Shown here: piece by piece, positions 17,820-58,650 of the stretch | Layout of the letters: each line of letters opens with the position of its first letter | Numbering within the stretch: the first letter of the stretch is position 1 | Assembly (NCBI GenBank): GCA_048621635.1 | Contig: JBMCWH010000003.1 | Span: 1 to 63,760 of the forward strand | Source of the DNA: Patescibacteria group bacterium | Lineage (GTDB): Bacteria; Patescibacteriota; WWE3; JAUXAW01; JAYEID01 | Length of the DNA: 63,760 bases | Direction of reading: 5' to 3' | Notes under the pieces: generated by a model | What the model saw: the letters and a program-made list of their open reading frames with translations, nothing else | What the model was told of the DNA's origin: nothing | Databases searched by the model: none | Position numbers and translations under genes: made by a program

Positions 17820-17974
17820 CTTTTTCCAAAGAAGGTTGGACAGTTATTTTTAGTATATCTGTTGGTGGACAGATTTTTCTTACTTCATTGTAGCGGATTA
17901 CGGCTTGACAAATTTTTGCCTTCCTTCTAACATAGTTAAAGTGTCATTCAACTATTTAATTTTAATTAATTTTA

Positions 17975-18250
17975 ATGAAAGAACCACAGCATTTGTTTTT
18001 GTTTGAAAGAACCCGCTTACTTATTTTAAGAGCTTTGTTTAGGTGTAGCGAGGATGTCTGCGGTTGCGACCTTGTAGATAATTTGGGTGTTTCTAAATAC
18101 TTGGTCTCCTACCATATTAAAAAGTTGCGGGAGAAGGGTTTTGTAGATGAAGTTAAATGTGGGAACAGAAAGGAATACATTGTGGCTGAAGGTAAAAGGA
18201 AATTAGTTAAAAATGTACTAAGAATAACTGGTCTCTTGGATGATGAATAA
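17975..18250 (+). CDS. ArsR-family winged-helix transcriptional regulator
   Basis: 91 aa. The pattern RLLILRAL...CGCDL...GVSKYLVSYHIKKLREKGFV is typical of ArsR/SmtB. The 3' end overlaps the TrxR start. Confidence 0.7.
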   Translation: MKEPQHLFLFERTRLLILRALFRCSEDVCGCDLVDNLGVSKYLVSYHIKKLREKGFVDEVKCGNRKEYIVAEGKRKLVKNVLRITGLLDDE

Positions 18251-19181
18251 GCTTTCTGAAAAATATGACCTTGTAATTGTTGGTTCCGGTCCCGCTGGGT
18301 ATACTGCCGGAATATACGCAAGGCGGTTTAAATTAAAGACTTTGATTGTTGGTAAATCCCCGGGGGGGACAATTGCTGATGCTCATAAAGTGTGTAATTT
18401 TCCCACTTTTGGGGAGATAGCAGGGGAGGAGTTAACTCGCAGGATGCATGATGTGGCGAAAGATCTTGGGGTTAAGTCGGTGACGGCTAGGGTAGAAAAG
18501 ATAGGAAGGAAGGATTACGGCTTTCTTTTAGAAACGACATCTTCGGGGGAGGTTAAGGGGGACGCTGTGCTTTTAGCTACTGGGACAAAGCGAAGAAAGC
18601 TTAATTTGGAGCACGAGGATTATTTTTTGGGAAGGGGTGTTTCCTATTGCGCCACCTGTGATGGGCCGTTTTTCCAGGATAAGATTGTAGCAGTGGTGGG
18701 GGGCTCTAATGCAGCAACAACAGCGGCATTGTATCTTTCTGAAATTGCTAAAAGAGTTTATCTTATCTATCGAAAAGATGAGCTTAGAGGAGAGGAGATG
18801 TGGAAAGATCAGGTAGAGGAGAATCCTAAAATAGAGGTGGTTTATAATACCAATGTTGTTTCCCTGGGCGGGGAGAATAAGCTGGAGCGAATAGGCTTAG
18901 ATAACGAGTTTGCTGGTAAGGATTTTATTAGAGTTGATGGGCTTTTTGTTGAGATCGGCTCCGTTCCGGCTAATGCTTTAGCCAAGAAGATTGGTCTGGA
19001 TTTGAGTGAAGAGGGGTATCTTCGGGTGGGAGAGGATCAGTCTACTAACCTGCCCGGCTTTTACGGTGCGGGTGATATCACCACCGGTTCGGGAGGTCTG
19101 AAGCAAGTTATTACCGCTTGCAGTGAGGGAGCAATAGCGGCAACAAATATTTATAAATTTTTGAAATCGAAAGGTCCGTGA
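18240..19181 (+). CDS. Thioredoxin-reductase-like flavoprotein (low-Mr TrxR fold) with degenerate NADPH motifs
   Basis: FAD motif GSGPAGYTA and redox CATC are present. The second dinucleotide site reads GGSNAATTAA and IYRKDELR instead of the canonical GGGDSA and HRRxxFR. Confidence 0.75.
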   Translation: MMNKLSEKYDLVIVGSGPAGYTAGIYARRFKLKTLIVGKSPGGTIADAHKVCNFPTFGEIAGEELTRRMHDVAKDLGVKSVTARVEKIGRKDYGFLLETTSSGEVKGDAVLLATGTKRRKLNLEHEDYFLGRGVSYCATCDGPFFQDKIVAVVGGSNAATTAALYLSEIAKRVYLIYRKDELRGEEMWKDQVEENPKIEVVYNTNVVSLGGENKLERIGLDNEFAGKDFIRVDGLFVEIGSVPANALAKKIGLDLSEEGYLRVGEDQSTNLPGFYGAGDITTGSGGLKQVITACSEGAIAATNIYKFLKSKGP

Positions 19182-19184
19182 TAG

Positions 19185-19499
19185 ATGTCTCACATAATTG
19201 CTACTGACAAAAACTTTAAACAGGAAGTTCTTGAAGAGGAAAAGCCGGTGTTGGTTGATTTTTGGGCTCCTTGGTGCCGGCCCTGTCTTATTCTTTCTCC
19301 CATGATTGAGGAGCTTGAGGAGGAACTAGAGGGAAAAGTTTTGGTGGCGAAGCTTAATGTGGATGAGAATCGAGAGACTGCGATGCGCTATCGAATTCAG
19401 GGTATTCCGACGGTGCTGGTTTTTAAAGATGGGAAACTTCGGCAAAGGTTGGTCGGGGTGCGTTCGAAACAGGCTTATCGAAAGGCTTTGGAGCAGTAG
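19185..19499 (+). CDS. Thioredoxin with a non-canonical WCRPC active site
   Basis: 104 aa. Contains VLVDFWAPWCRPC and GIPTVLVFKDG. Confidence 0.85.
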   Translation: MSHIIATDKNFKQEVLEEEKPVLVDFWAPWCRPCLILSPMIEELEEELEGKVLVAKLNVDENRETAMRYRIQGIPTVLVFKDGKLRQRLVGVRSKQAYRKALEQ

Positions 19500-19500
19500 T

Positions 19501-19728
19501 ATGCCGATTTATAATTTCCAATGTATAGAATGCGAACATGAATTTTCTGGTATTTTTCCGATGCGCTCTTCTGGGGGAGAAGAGGTTAGCTGCCCAGAAT
19601 GTGGAAATGGGGATGTGAAACGGGTGTATAAAAGTGGTGCTACGTTGATTTCTAATTCGGACTCAAGAACTGAAGATTCGAATTGCCCAACTTGTCCTGT
19701 CTGTTCGGGCGGGGCTTGTGATTTTTAG
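19501..19728 (+). CDS. FmdB-family zinc-ribbon protein
   Basis: MPIYNFQCIECEHEF...CPECG.. and a C-terminal CPTCPVCSGGAC. The ATG lies 2 nt after the trx stop. The longer tracked ORF (19357) overlaps trx and is not credible. Confidence 0.7.
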   Translation: MPIYNFQCIECEHEFSGIFPMRSSGGEEVSCPECGNGDVKRVYKSGATLISNSDSRTEDSNCPTCPVCSGGACDF

Positions 19729-19737
19729 GATAATATT

Positions 19738-20994
19738 ATGTCGGATCCATTTGAAGATTATCTTGGACAAGTTAATAATGCATTGGAACTTCTGGATTTT
19801 GATGGGTGCGCTAATACTTTGTTGAGCACTCCACAGAAAACAGTTGAAGTGAATTTCCCAGTGGAAATGGATAGCGGTGAGGTACAGAACTTTCACGGGT
19901 TCAGGGTGCAGTTTAACAATTCTCGTGGCCCTTATAAAGGAGGAGTTAGGTTTCATCCTGAAGTTGATTTGGCAGAAGTTAAAGCTTTGGCGGCTTGGAT
20001 GACTATTAAGTGTGCAGTGGCCGATATTCCTTTTGGTGGTGCAAAAGGGGGGGTGATTGTTAATCCCAAAGAATTTTCAGAGACCGAGTTGGAGAGACTT
20101 TCCCGGGCTTACGTTAGGTCTATTTATAGAGATATCGGTCCGGATACAGATGTTCCTGCTCCTGATGTTAATACCAATTCTCAGATTATGGCTTGGATGT
20201 TTGAAGAGTACGAAAATTTGAGGGGTGAAGGATCTCCCGCCGCCTTTACGGGAAAGCCTTTAAAGTTGGGAGGTTCGGAAGGAAGGGTGGCGGCAACAGG
20301 ACGAGGAGGGGTTTATGTTTTGGAAAAAATTGCGAGAACCCTAGGTCTCATCCCTTCTCAAACAACCGTTGCTGTGCAGGGTTTTGGTAATGTCGGCTAT
20401 CATTTTGCCAAATTTGCAGCGAAGGTGGGCTTTAAAGTAATTGCTGTTTCTGATTCTACAGGTGCAGTTTTGGTTTCCAAAGGCTTAGATCCTGAGGAGA
20501 CGCTAAACTGTAAAAAAGGTGAAGGAACAGTTGCCGGTTGTTACTGTGTTGGTTCTGTTTGTGATTCTTCTTATGGACAGAAAATAACTAATGAGGAGCT
20601 GCTCCAGTTGCCTGTAGATGTTTTGGTCCCTGCTGCCTTGGGGAGTGTTATTACTGGGGACAACGCAAAGGATGTTAGGGCCAAGATAATTATTGAAATG
20701 GCTAATGGCCCCGTTACTGCTGAAGGCGCTAAAGGATTACAAAATAGAAGTATAACATCTATCCCTGATGTTCTTGCCAATTCTGGTGGTGTAATTGTTT
20801 CTTATTTTGAGTGGCTCCAGAATAGGCAAGAAACCCATTGGGGTAGGGAGAAGGTTTTTTCCATGTTGAAGAAAAAGATTACTGGTTCTTTTGAAATTAT
20901 TTGGAACTTCTCTAAGGAGCGGGAAATTTCTCTCCGAGAAGCAGCTTATGTTTTGGCTGTATCTAGGATTACAGAAGATTTAGGAAGGGAATAG
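19738..20994 (+). CDS. gdhA: Glutamate dehydrogenase (Glu/Leu/Phe/Val dehydrogenase family)
   Basis: Contains KGGVRFHP, the catalytic-lysine motif PFGGAKGG, the Rossmann motif QGFGNVG and EMANGP. Confidence 0.9.
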   Translation: MSDPFEDYLGQVNNALELLDFDGCANTLLSTPQKTVEVNFPVEMDSGEVQNFHGFRVQFNNSRGPYKGGVRFHPEVDLAEVKALAAWMTIKCAVADIPFGGAKGGVIVNPKEFSETELERLSRAYVRSIYRDIGPDTDVPAPDVNTNSQIMAWMFEEYENLRGEGSPAAFTGKPLKLGGSEGRVAATGRGGVYVLEKIARTLGLIPSQTTVAVQGFGNVGYHFAKFAAKVGFKVIAVSDSTGAVLVSKGLDPEETLNCKKGEGTVAGCYCVGSVCDSSYGQKITNEELLQLPVDVLVPAALGSVITGDNAKDVRAKIIIEMANGPVTAEGAKGLQNRSITSIPDVLANSGGVIVSYFEWLQNRQETHWGREKVFSMLKKKITGSFEIIWNFSKEREISLREAAYVLAVSRITEDLGRE

Positions 20995-22675: not shown

Positions 22676-22999
22676 ATGGAGTATGTTTTCACTGACGACA
22701 ATTTTGAAGAGGAAGTTCTAGAAGAGGAACTTACTGTGTTAGTAGATTTTTGGGCACCCTGGTGTGGCCCGTGTAGAGTGATAGGCCCTGTAATTGAGGA
22801 ATTAGCAGAAGAGTTTGAAGGAAAGGTTAAGGTCGGGAAGTTGAATGTTGATGAGAATCCAGGTGTTGCGCAAAAATATTCAGTTATGAGTATACCGACG
22901 ATTCTTATTTTCCAAGAGGGGGAGCAAGCTAGGCAGTTAGTTGGGGTACGTTCTAAGGAGCAACTTTCCCAGGAACTTGAATCTCTTCTTGCTGCGTAA
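22676..22999 (+). CDS. trxA: Thioredoxin (canonical WCGPC)
   Basis: 107 aa. Contains VLVDFWAPWCGPC and SIPTILIFQEG. Confidence 0.9.
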   Translation: MEYVFTDDNFEEEVLEEELTVLVDFWAPWCGPCRVIGPVIEELAEEFEGKVKVGKLNVDENPGVAQKYSVMSIPTILIFQEGEQARQLVGVRSKEQLSQELESLLAA

Positions 23000-57520: not shown

Positions 57521-58450
57521 ATGCCGGAAACTTATGATTTGATAATAATTGGAGCTGGTCCAGCTGGTTTGGCTGGTTCATTTTACGCATCTCGTTGTTT
57601 TTCCTTAGACACTCTTGTTTTCGATGGCTCTCCGGGAGGACAGATGGCAGAAGCTAGACAACTCGCTAGTTATCCGGGGTTTAAGAACATATCTGGTTGG
57701 GAACTTATGGAGAATATGTTGGAGCAAGCAAAATCTTTCGGTGTAGAAATAAAAACTAAGAAAGTTACTACTGTGAGGGAGCGGGAGGGAGTATTTGTTG
57801 TTTCTACGGAGGAGGAAACTTATCAGGCGAAAACTGTTTTAGTTGCTATAGGAGCTGGCCCTAGGAAATTGGGTGTTCCTGGGGAGGAAGAGTTTATCGG
57901 TAAAGGTATCTCTTATTGTGCGCTTTGTGATGCGCCTTTTTATAAAGACAAGGTAGTGGGTGTTGTGGGGGGAGGGGATAGTGCTCTGGATGGGGCTTTA
58001 GAGCTTTTGGAACACGTGAAGAAGATTTTTTTGATCCATCGCCGGGAAGAATTTCGTGCCAAACCTTTGTTTGTCCAAAAGATTAAGGAAGCTGAAAATG
58101 TTGAATTAGTTTTAAAAAGAAATGTGGTTAGGGTGGAAGGTGAAGAAATGGTAAACAAATTGATTTTGGATATGCCTTATCAGGGAGCTGACTTCTTGAA
58201 GGTGGACGGAGTGTTTATCGAGATCGGTAATGTCCCTGACAGAGAGTTTTTGGAAGATATTGGCTTGGAAACAACTGAGCAGGGATACGTACCTGTTGCT
58301 GAGGACATGCGCACTAATATTGAAGGTATATATTCTGCAGGAGATGTAACCACAGCCTCTAATGGGGTTAAGCAGATTGTTACTGCCTGTAGTGAAGGAG
58401 TGATAGCTGCAAAAAGTATCTATAATTATCTTCGTAAAGAAGGGAGGTGA
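57521..58450 (+). CDS. trxB: Thioredoxin-disulfide reductase (canonical NADPH motifs)
   Basis: GAGPAGL, CALCDA, GGGDSALDGA and HRREEFRA. Confidence 0.88.
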   Translation: MPETYDLIIIGAGPAGLAGSFYASRCFSLDTLVFDGSPGGQMAEARQLASYPGFKNISGWELMENMLEQAKSFGVEIKTKKVTTVREREGVFVVSTEEETYQAKTVLVAIGAGPRKLGVPGEEEFIGKGISYCALCDAPFYKDKVVGVVGGGDSALDGALELLEHVKKIFLIHRREEFRAKPLFVQKIKEAENVELVLKRNVVRVEGEEMVNKLILDMPYQGADFLKVDGVFIEIGNVPDREFLEDIGLETTEQGYVPVAEDMRTNIEGIYSAGDVTTASNGVKQIVTACSEGVIAAKSIYNYLRKEGR

Positions 58451-58458
58451 AAGATATA

Positions 58459-58650
58459 ATGCCAGAAAAAAGAAACTTAACCATAGATCCTGAGAAGTGT
58501 ATTGGATGTGGGTTGTGTGCTACTATTGCGGGCGAAACGTTTAAGTTAGGAGAAAGTGGAAAGGCAATTGTAACTGATTCGGAAGGGAATTCGCGCGAGG
58601 AAATTGAAAAAGCTATTGAGTCGTGCCCCGTAGATGCAATTAGTTGGTAA
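58459..58650 (+). CDS. Small single-cluster ferredoxin
   Basis: 63 aa from the ATG at 58459, which has a GGGAGG RBS. Contains CIGCGLC...CP. Confidence 0.75.
   Translation: MPEKRNLTIDPEKCIGCGLCATIAGETFKLGESGKAIVTDSEGNSREEIEKAIESCPVDAISW

What the first reader, a model, noticed from the sequence alone, without database searches (positions are those of the whole stretch)
17975..19728. ArsR regulator, TrxR-like enzyme lacking NADPH motifs, WCRPC thioredoxin and a zinc-ribbon protein
The TrxR paralogue at 18240 keeps the FAD motif and the CATC redox centre. Where canonical enzymes have GGGDSA and HRRxxFR, it has GGSNAA and IYRKDELR. The second TrxR at 57521 keeps both canonical motifs. Loss of the HRR motif is characteristic of ferredoxin- or other-donor-dependent TrxR-like flavoenzymes. 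Its co-translated thioredoxin has WCRPC instead of WCGPC, which should shift the redox potential. The module is translationally coupled (overlaps or gaps of 1-3 nt) and preceded by an ArsR-type metal/redox sensor.
Basis: partly seen in the sequence, partly recalled or inferred. Interest (0 to 1): 0.55.

Follow-up and report, generated by a model that had tools for sequence, protein, structure and literature searches.

The report
Variant thioredoxin reductase operon in CPR bacterium
A tiny-genome (Patescibacteria) bacterium has a second thioredoxin reductase and thioredoxin pair under its own regulator; the enzyme's NADPH pocket is altered but not lost, and it belongs to a large untested enzyme subfamily that is often the only thioredoxin reductase in such bacteria.

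Summary
The sequence observation holds. The genes run ArsR (17975-18250), TrxR paralogue (18240-19181), WCRPC thioredoxin (19185-19499) and FmdB zinc ribbon (19501-19728), with an 11-nt overlap and gaps of 3 and 1 nt. The motifs GGSNAA and IYRKDELR are there, and the second TrxR at 57521 is canonical.

"Lacking NADPH motifs" overstates it. An indel-free alignment with E. coli TrxB shows only G154S, E159T, H175Y and R177K. R176 and R181 are kept. A proven NADPH enzyme (M. mazei NTR) shares two such deviations.

The protein belongs to a large conserved "GGS/YR" subfamily of Patescibacteria, also seen in DPANN and Asgard MAGs. That subfamily is the only TrxR homologue found in at least 23 of the 87 CPR genomes classified (200 sampled). 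It scores far closer to NADPH enzymes than to FFTR, DTR or TRi, and it has no C-terminal aromatic tail.

The donor is untested. I put NAD(P)H at about 0.5 and ferredoxin at about 0.3.

WCRPC is a rare, recurrent natural variant and is not tied to this TrxR type. The operon layout is not conserved.

The ferredoxin gene in this genome is co-translated with the canonical TrxR. In relatives it is fused to that enzyme.

This scan has flagged other HRR-less TrxR paralogues on other DNA before. This is the mildest such case.

The parts
17905..17933 (+). Promoter-like site: TTGACA, 17 nt, TAACAT
   Evidence: 10 of 12 matches. It lies in the 155-nt gap upstream of ArsR. This is a consensus match only.
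17932..17955 (.). Inverted repeat ATAGTTAAA-N6-TTCAACTAT overlapping the -10 hexamer; candidate ArsR operator
   Evidence: 9-nt arms, 89% complementary. It is the only such site in the 631-kb genome. The operator role is inferred.
17975..18250 (+). ArsR/SmtB-family regulator, 91 aa, with Cys24, Cys29, Cys31 (CSEDVCGCDL) and Cys62
   Evidence: The cysteines are conserved in the 43-44% identical orthologues L186 and L187, which sit beside glutaredoxin, NifU, IscS and Rrf2 genes.
18240..19181 (+). Low-Mr thioredoxin reductase paralogue of the 'GGS/YR' subfamily (GGSNAATT, VYLIYRKDELRGEEMW, AHKVCNFP)
19185..19499 (+). Thioredoxin with WCRPCL active site
19501..19728 (+). FmdB-family zinc-ribbon protein, 75 aa, with two CxxC pairs and a Cys-rich tail
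   Evidence: No homologue was found next to the other TrxR loci with this query.
19738..20994 (+). Glutamate dehydrogenase, 9 nt downstream; a possible NAD(P)H source
   Evidence: GDH lies beside TrxR on the same strand in 10 of 89 other CPR loci. A terminator-like hairpin at 19694-19715 leaves co-transcription open.
57521..58450 (+). Canonical TrxR paralogue (GGGDSA, HRREEFR), used as comparator
58447..58650 (+). Single-cluster ferredoxin, overlapping the canonical TrxR stop by 4 nt
   Evidence: Fer4_13, 4e-15. It is fused to the TrxR in L177 and L121.
22676..22999 (+). Second thioredoxin, WCGPC

Best explanation
This is a second, separately regulated thioredoxin system. A promoter with a unique inverted repeat drives a Cys-rich ArsR-type repressor, a low-Mr FAD thioredoxin reductase, its thioredoxin (WCRPC) and a small FmdB zinc-ribbon protein. 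A glutamate dehydrogenase gene follows directly.

The reductase is a working TrxR. It keeps the FAD motif, the CATCD redox centre with its acid catalyst, and the GRG and Phe thioredoxin-docking residues. It belongs to a large, conserved, uncharacterised 'GGS/YR' subfamily typical of Patescibacteria.

Its nucleotide pocket is remodelled (G154S, H175Y, R177K, E159T) but still under selection. Most likely it still takes a hydride from a pyridine nucleotide, perhaps with less dependence on the 2'-phosphate (dual NADH/NADPH use). The electrons would then pass FAD -> Cys-Cys -> thioredoxin by the usual domain rotation.

The ArsR protein probably senses thiol or metal stress through its conserved cysteines and de-represses the operon.

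Shown here: gene order, motifs, family membership, conservation and distribution. Inferred: the donor, the regulation, and any role for the zinc ribbon.
For: 1. Alignment. The alignment with E. coli TrxB has no indels in this stretch; R176 and R181 are kept and R177 becomes Lys.
2. Conservation. In 90 YR-type sequences below 70% identity, R178 is invariant (it defines the set), and L182, R/K183 and W188 lie in the most conserved quartile. Only small residues (S, A, G) dominate position 156.
3. Precedent. M. mazei NTR, treated as a canonical NADPH enzyme (PMC6262447), also has Thr at the E159 position and Lys at R181.
4. Similarity. The best PDB matches are NADPH enzymes: SsTrxB3 at 9e-68 and MmNTR at 5e-61. 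Weaker are TaTR 1e-44, DTR 2e-40, FFTR 1e-35 and TRi 1.5e-28. Alignments of the motif region to several NTRs run through the whole motif, to query residues 72-77. Those to DTR, TaTR and two FFTR entries stop at residues 61-62, just before the R181-equivalent.
5. Structure. The AF2 model has pLDDT 94.6 and superposes best on flavin-reducing-state NTRs, including NADP complexes (TM 0.86-0.87).
6. Housekeeping role. The subfamily is the only TrxR homologue found in at least 23 of 87 classified CPR genomes and in 3 of 4 same-family genomes.
7. Context. GDH sits beside TrxR on the same strand in 10 of 89 CPR loci from 9 families. Four are YR-type and six are H-type, which suggests a shared NAD(P)H supply.
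8. Regulator. The ArsR cysteines are conserved, and its orthologues sit with Grx, NifU and IscS genes.
Against: - The third Gly of GGG contacts the pyrophosphate (Wierenga rule, as quoted in PMC5627308). It is Gly in all 88 His-type sequences but Ser or Ala in most YR-type sequences, and Asn (3) or Lys (2) in five of 163. Canonical dinucleotide binding may therefore be impaired.
- The R177 position is relaxed (K, G or R).
- No NAD kinase was found in this genome, which is 89% complete.
- The organism has a 2-oxoacid:ferredoxin oxidoreductase and ferredoxins.
- TrxR homologues of this class are often co-translated with or fused to a ferredoxin.
- Conserved basic residues could equally dock an acidic ferredoxin.
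- No member of the subfamily has been assayed.
- The operon layout is not conserved, so links to the zinc ribbon and GDH may be incidental in this densely packed genome.
Confidence: 0.5

Rival explanations
1. The enzyme is ferredoxin-dependent, working like FFTR. Reduced ferredoxin from the 2-oxoacid:ferredoxin oxidoreductase reduces the FAD one electron at a time. The altered pocket no longer binds NAD(P)H, and its conserved basic residues dock the acidic ferredoxin.
For: G154 is replaced only in the YR background, H175 becomes Tyr, and R177 is relaxed. A few members carry Lys or Asn at the pyrophosphate-contact position. The genome has POR and ferredoxins and no detectable NAD kinase. Related CPR TrxRs, including YRG and NRG forms (L180, L183), have a ferredoxin gene directly downstream.
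Against: No ferredoxin gene is in this operon. The ferredoxin is coupled to the canonical HRR paralogue, and the fused forms L177 (HRR) and L121 (HRN) keep GGGDSA, so ferredoxin wiring does not track motif loss. The motif is conserved rather than degenerate as it is in TRi (PMC5627308). The protein is much less similar to FFTR or DTR than to NTRs, lacks the C-terminal Trp tail of cyanobacterial FFTR (PMC8154056), and is about 25 residues longer than clostridial FFTR chains.
Confidence: 0.3
2. The enzyme is strictly NADH-dependent, as reported for Thermoplasma TrxR. The changes remove NADPH preference in a cell that makes little or no NADP.
For: NAD kinase was not found in this genome. Only 27 of 201 CPR genomes had a hit above the cut-off. 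TaTR lacks HRR and uses NADH (PMC6262447).
Against: No acidic residue appears at the end of strand beta-2, and R, K and R are retained, which favours a 2'-phosphate. NAD kinase presence does not track TrxR type: 7 of 34 YR genomes and 3 of 26 HRR genomes have it.
Confidence: 0.15
3. The protein is not a thioredoxin reductase in vivo. It is a TrxR-fold flavoenzyme with another substrate (for example a persulfide, a metal or a small disulfide) that uses the clade-specific His49 and Cys52.
For: His49 and Cys52 (AHKVCNFP) are conserved in the subfamily (147 and 123 of 163) and nearly absent from HRR enzymes. The operon has an ArsR-type metal or thiol regulator.
Against: CATCD, GRG and the Phe docking residues are intact. 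A thioredoxin gene is adjacent here and in several other loci. In many genomes this is the only TrxR homologue found.
Confidence: 0.05

Closest known systems
Archaeal-type low-Mr NADPH thioredoxin reductases (Sulfolobus solfataricus TrxB3, PDB 3F8P/3F8R; Methanosarcina mazei NTR, PDB 4ZN0)
   Same: These are the best sequence and fold matches. They share the length, the FAD motif, CxxC in the nucleotide domain and the Trx-docking residues. MmNTR shares Thr at the E159 position and Lys at R181.
   Different: Here the third Gly of GGG is Ser, His175 is Tyr and Arg177 is Lys. Cys52 and His49 are clade-specific. The donor has not been tested.
Thermoplasma acidophilum TrxR (PDB 3CTY)
   Same: A TrxR that deviates from HRRxxxR and was first thought to be pyridine-nucleotide independent. 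It is the precedent that motif change can mean a coenzyme switch rather than loss (PMC6262447).
   Different: It is a weaker match (1e-44). TaTR lacks the whole motif, whereas this protein keeps most of it.
Ferredoxin-dependent flavin thioredoxin reductases: clostridial FFTR (6GNA) and cyanobacterial FFTR/DTR (5J60, 6XTF)
   Same: The same TrxR fold and CxxC chemistry, with deviation from the NADPH motifs.
   Different: Much lower similarity (1e-35 and 2e-40). There is no C-terminal aromatic tail (PMC8154056). It is about 25 residues longer than clostridial FFTR. The basic residues of the 2'-phosphate site are retained.
Desulfovibrio vulgaris TRi (PDB 5NII)
   Same: An extra TrxR paralogue beside a canonical one in an anaerobe.
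   Different: TRi has TQ/NGK and GEGxxAxN (PMC5627308). This protein has YRKD and GGSxxAxT, and the match is only 1.5e-28. TRi-like genes do occur in other CPR genomes (L132, L135, L136) and are clearly distinct.

Membership tests
Low-Mr thioredoxin reductase (TrxB, TIGR01292) | N-terminal FAD-binding GxGxxG | tested here: met
   GSGPAG at residues 15-20; invariant in alignments.
Low-Mr thioredoxin reductase (TrxB, TIGR01292) | Redox-active CxxC plus acid catalyst in the nucleotide domain | tested here: met
   CATCD at residues 137-141, aligned with E. coli CATCD.
Low-Mr thioredoxin reductase (TrxB, TIGR01292) | Thioredoxin-docking G[R/K]G and Phe after the CxxC (PMC5627308) | tested here: met
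   GRGVSYCATCDGPFF.
Low-Mr thioredoxin reductase (TrxB, TIGR01292) | Pyrophosphate motif GGGxxAxE | tested here: not met
   GGSNAATT. The third Gly is Ser and the Glu is Thr. Thr at the Glu position also occurs in the NADPH-dependent MmNTR.
Low-Mr thioredoxin reductase (TrxB, TIGR01292) | 2'-phosphate motif VxxxHRRDx[F/L]R | tested here: inconclusive
   VYLIYRKDELR. V, R176, D, L and R181 match; H becomes Y and R177 becomes K.
Low-Mr thioredoxin reductase (TrxB, TIGR01292) | Score above the NCBIfam equivalog cut-off (343.45 bits) | tested here: not met
   313.2 bits. The canonical paralogue also falls short at 336.6 bits, so this does not discriminate.
Cyanobacterial FFTR/DTR and DDOR | [quoted passage not shown] | tested here: not met
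   The protein ends at ...KFLKSKGP, level with the canonical paralogue and E. coli TrxB.
Clostridial FFTR | Sequence affinity to the FFTR clade and a short chain of about 290 aa | tested here: not met
   6GNA (288 aa) scores 1.3e-35 against 9e-68 for NTRs. The query is 313 aa.
Clostridial FFTR | Reduction by ferredoxin, not by NAD(P)H | not testable with these tools
   This needs an enzyme assay.
TRi (Desulfovibrio type) | TQ/NGK in place of HRRD and a degenerate GEGxxAxN (PMC5627308) | tested here: not met
   The protein has YRKD and GGSNAATT.
Thioredoxin (TIGR01068) | Family score above cut-off; WCGPC active site | tested here: inconclusive
   120.7 bits against a cut-off of 96.8, so that part is met. 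The active site is WCRPC, not WCGPC.
ArsR/SmtB regulators | Winged HTH_5 domain with a CxC metal or thiol site in helix alpha-3 | tested here: met
   PF01022 at 4.9e-11. The CGCDL motif is conserved in orthologues. Ligand not tested.
FmdB zinc ribbon (TIGR02605 / PF09723) | CxxC...CxxC ribbon above the family cut-off | tested here: met
   49.5 bits against 31.3.

The most novel reading that the evidence does not exclude
The GGS/YR thioredoxin reductases form a new donor class. They are marked by Ser at the pyrophosphate glycine, Tyr for His175, and a His49/Cys52 pair on the loop that lines the flavin. They are the sole TrxR homologue found in at least 23 of the 87 Patescibacteria genomes classified here and are also present in DPANN and Asgard MAGs. 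On this reading they no longer use NADPH but run on ferredoxin or strictly on NADH, in cells that mostly lack NAD kinase.
Probability: 0.3. Interest if true: 0.6.

Novelty: new variant of a known kind. Interest (0 to 1): 0.35.

Why it matters
Thioredoxin reduction is the main thiol-repair route in ultra-small, host-dependent bacteria, and nobody has measured what powers it there.

In at least 23 of the 87 CPR genomes classified here (from 200 sampled), the only TrxR homologue found is this variant type. NAD kinase was detected above the cut-off in only 27 of 201. The electron source of this subfamily therefore bears on how these cells balance redox at all.

The case is also a caution. Calling a TrxR "NADPH-independent" from the HRR motif alone over-calls. 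Here the charged residues are kept, and the ferredoxin gene is attached to the canonical paralogue, not to the variant one.

Tried and rejected
- **FFTR, DTR, DDOR or TRi membership.** Rejected on similarity, tail, chain length and motif.
- **NAD kinase versus TrxR type.** I tested whether NAD kinase presence tracks the type. It does not: 7 of 34 YR genomes and 3 of 26 HRR genomes have it.
- **Conservation of the operon layout.** Same-family orthologues (L174-L176) lack these neighbours. An ArsR-family gene lies beside a YR-type TrxR only in L090, and it is a different ArsR. No zinc-ribbon homologue was found elsewhere.
- **WCRPC thioredoxins in 400 CPR species genomes.** A DNA pattern search gave only chance hits outside Trx genes, at the rate of the reversed-pattern control.
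- **Single origin of the YR motif.** A 191-row FastTree with the motif columns removed needs 12 changes of the label, of which starred branches force at least 6. A 35-row IQ-TREE with the motif columns kept puts the YR-like rows in one group at SH-aLRT 90, with one YRG row (L158) outside it. Single origin is therefore unresolved.
- **Tools and papers unavailable.** The FFTR (PNAS 2018), DFTR (JBC 2016) and TaTR (ACS Omega 2017) papers are not held. What I say about them comes from papers that cite them.
- **Reference sequences.** Sequences of FFTR, DTR, TRi, TaTR and DFTR could not be brought into a tree. Their distance rests on PDB E-values only.
- **Pocket geometry.** Model coordinates are not exposed, so the pocket could not be inspected.
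Full report
**Observation**

The window comes from a Patescibacteria (CPR) MAG of 631 kb in 34 contigs, 89% complete. On the + strand the genes run as follows:
- an ArsR-family regulator at 17975-18250
- a TrxR homologue at 18240-19181, overlapping ArsR by 11 nt
- a thioredoxin at 19185-19499, after a 3-nt gap
- an FmdB-type zinc-ribbon protein at 19501-19728, after a 1-nt gap
- a glutamate dehydrogenase at 19738-20994, after a 9-nt gap

The family assignments are firm. The second TrxR (57521-58450) has GGGDSA and HRREEFR, and a second thioredoxin (22676-22999) has WCGPC. These are the only two TrxR and two Trx genes found in the genome.

Upstream of ArsR is a 155-nt gap with a promoter-like site. 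An inverted repeat, ATAGTTAAA-N6-TTCAACTAT, overlaps the -10 hexamer. That repeat occurs nowhere else in the genome.

**How far the NADPH site is changed**

I fetched E. coli trxB and aligned it. The stretch from the CxxC through the motif aligns without indels:
- E. coli: [32 protein letters not shown]
- This protein: GGSNAATTAALYLSEIAKRVYLIYRKDELRGE

In literature numbering the changes are G154S, T156A, E159T, H175Y, R177K and F180L. R176, D178 and R181 are kept.

The published signatures are GGGxxAxE and VxxxHRRDx[F/L]R, in which three arginines hold the 2'-phosphate (PMC5627308). The residues are largely intact at the same positions.

Two of the deviations also occur in M. mazei NTR, which PMC6262447 treats as a canonical NADPH enzyme. 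That enzyme reads GGGNSAVT...VHRRDHLK.

The G154S change is the serious one. That glycine makes the close approach to the pyrophosphate (PMC5627308, quoting Wierenga).

**What family it belongs to**

All 120 nearest database proteins are 49-57% identical and come mostly from Patescibacteria metagenomes. Those whose NADPH-site region could be read carry GG[S/A/G]xxA and, almost all, IYR[K/R/G]xxL[R/K]G..W; four have Val in place of the Tyr.

In a pooled alignment of 291 TrxR sequences:
- His at position 177 always goes with GGG and, in all but one case, with no Cys52 (88 of 89).
- Tyr goes with a non-Gly at 156 in 103 of 119 and with Cys52 in 85 of 119.
- Within 90 YR-type sequences below 70% identity, R178 is invariant (it defines the set).
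- L182, R/K183 and W188 are in the most conserved quartile. The R177 position is relaxed.

The segment is therefore under selection. It is not decaying as described for TRi.

Distribution across genomes:
- Among 200 evenly sampled CPR genomes, I classified the 87 with the best matches. At least 33 have a YR-type enzyme, and in at least 23 it is the only TrxR homologue found at E<=1e-30.
- Three of the four same-family genomes have an orthologue (51-56% identical) as their only TrxR. The fourth has only the canonical type.
- The same motif type appears in DPANN and Asgard MAGs.

The enzyme is thus the housekeeping TrxR of many of these organisms, not a degenerate spare. CPR TrxRs overall show many other motif states (VRG, ARR, SRS, NIN and others).

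**Relation to known NADPH-independent enzymes**

PDB sequence matches rank NADPH enzymes first: SsTrxB3 at 9e-68 and MmNTR at 5e-61. Well behind are Thermoplasma TrxR (1e-44), Gloeobacter DTR/FFTR (2e-40), clostridial FFTR (1e-35) and TRi (1.5e-28).

With the motif region alone, alignments to several NTRs run through the whole motif, to query residues 72-77. Those to DTR, TaTR and two FFTR entries stop at residues 61-62, just before the R181-equivalent.

The protein has no C-terminal extension, so it lacks the flavin-stacking Trp tail that defines cyanobacterial FFTR (PMC8154056).

The AF2 model is confident (pLDDT 94.6). It superposes best on flavin-reducing-state NTRs, including NADP complexes.

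PMC6262447 also reports that Thermoplasma TrxR, first called nucleotide-independent for lacking HRR, was later shown to use NADH. This is a direct warning against inferring the donor from motif loss.

**Context evidence on the donor**

For a pyridine nucleotide:
- GDH lies directly beside a TrxR gene on the same strand in 10 of 89 other CPR loci, from 9 families.
- Four of those TrxRs are YR-type and six are H-type.
- This suggests that both types draw on the same GDH-made nucleotide.

For another donor:
- NAD kinase was not found in this genome with either Pfam domain. Only 27 of 201 CPR genomes had a hit above the cut-off. Its presence does not track TrxR type.
- The genome has a 2-oxoacid:ferredoxin oxidoreductase and ferredoxins.

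The most telling point concerns the ferredoxin:
- A single-cluster ferredoxin gene (58447-58650; Fer4_13, 4e-15) overlaps the stop codon of the canonical HRR paralogue, not of the variant one.
- In relatives this ferredoxin is fused to the TrxR (L177 in the same family, L121 in the same class).
- In others it lies directly downstream of both H-type and YRG/NRG-type enzymes (L181, L180, L183).
- Ferredoxin wiring of TrxR homologues is therefore common in this class but independent of the HRR state.

**The partners**

- **Thioredoxin.** WCRPC occurs in 9 of the 120 nearest homologues. It is always followed by Leu or Met where WCGPC proteins have Arg, Lys or Gln. That looks like a charge relocation and argues against a sequencing error. 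Thioredoxins next to other YR-type TrxRs are mostly WCGPC. I found no other WCRPC thioredoxin in 400 CPR species genomes. The only papers with this motif concern plant nucleoredoxins. Its effect on redox potential is untested.
- **ArsR.** The protein has four conserved cysteines (C-x4-C-x-C and a later KCG). Its closest orthologues sit with glutaredoxin, NifU, IscS and Rrf2 genes. This points to thiol or Fe-S sensing rather than arsenic.
- **Zinc ribbon.** The association was not seen in any other locus.

**Verdict**

The enzyme is a member of an uncharacterised but very common CPR variant of low-Mr TrxR. Its nucleotide pocket is remodelled and conserved.

My estimates for the donor:
- NAD(P)H, possibly with relaxed specificity: about 0.5
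- ferredoxin: about 0.3
- strict NADH: about 0.15
- a non-Trx function: about 0.05

Earlier notes of this scan describe other HRR-less TrxR paralogues in CPR, DPANN and Firmicutes. Those have lost all the phosphate-binding residues, whereas this one has not.

Noticed in passing
window 57521-58650; L177:1282-2472(-); L121:3516-4667(+); L180:2447-2626; L183:1292-1483; L181:534-740: The canonical HRR-type TrxR is co-translated (4-nt overlap) with a 67-aa single-cluster ferredoxin. In a same-family genome and a same-class genome the two are fused into one 383-396-aa protein. In three more relatives the ferredoxin lies directly downstream. A nitroreductase and a DUF362 gene lie upstream in the window.
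   Followed up: partly
G000 whole genome; 201 Patescibacteria genomes: NAD kinase (PF01513, PF20143) was not found in this genome, which is 89% complete. Only 27 of 201 sampled CPR genomes had a hit above the cut-off, yet many of them keep an intact HRR NADPH motif in their TrxR.
   Followed up: partly
L087, L094, L099, L133, L157, L158, L162, L163, L170, L172; window 19738-20994: Glutamate dehydrogenase lies directly beside TrxR on the same strand in 10 of 89 CPR loci from 9 families. It also does so in some DPANN and other MAG loci (L006, L009, L020).
   Followed up: partly
window 18384-18395 (residues 49-52, AHKVCNFP): His49 and Cys52 replace the T..VEN of canonical TrxRs on the loop whose neighbouring residues line the si-face of the flavin. 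They are conserved in the YR subfamily (147 and 123 of 163); Cys52 is almost absent from HRR enzymes (1 of 83) and His49 is uncommon there (14 of 83). Their function is unknown.
   Followed up: partly
L132:4473-5387, L135:2626-3543, L136:1532-2440: Some CPR genomes carry a tandem second TrxR homologue with GEGDFAA and xDGKxxSI, the signature described for Desulfovibrio TRi.
   Followed up: no
L093, L096 (G017, G044): These YR-type TrxRs have Lys at the pyrophosphate-contact glycine (GGKNAA) and Leu at the R181 position. Canonical dinucleotide binding looks unlikely in these members.
   Followed up: no
P0062, P0074 (431 aa); L008:3632-4924: Fusions of an N-terminal thioredoxin-like domain (CPPC) to a YR-type TrxR.
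   Followed up: no
L015, L022, L023 (Promethearchaeota MAGs): Asgard loci hold a GGSDSA/IYRG-type TrxR preceded by two long thioredoxin-like proteins with KCMAC and A/ECMDC motifs.
   Followed up: no
L186, L187: The closest orthologues of the ArsR protein (43-44% identical, same Cys pattern) lie in clusters with Rrf2, NifU-like and cysteine desulfurase genes. L187 also has a CPWC glutaredoxin.
   Followed up: partly
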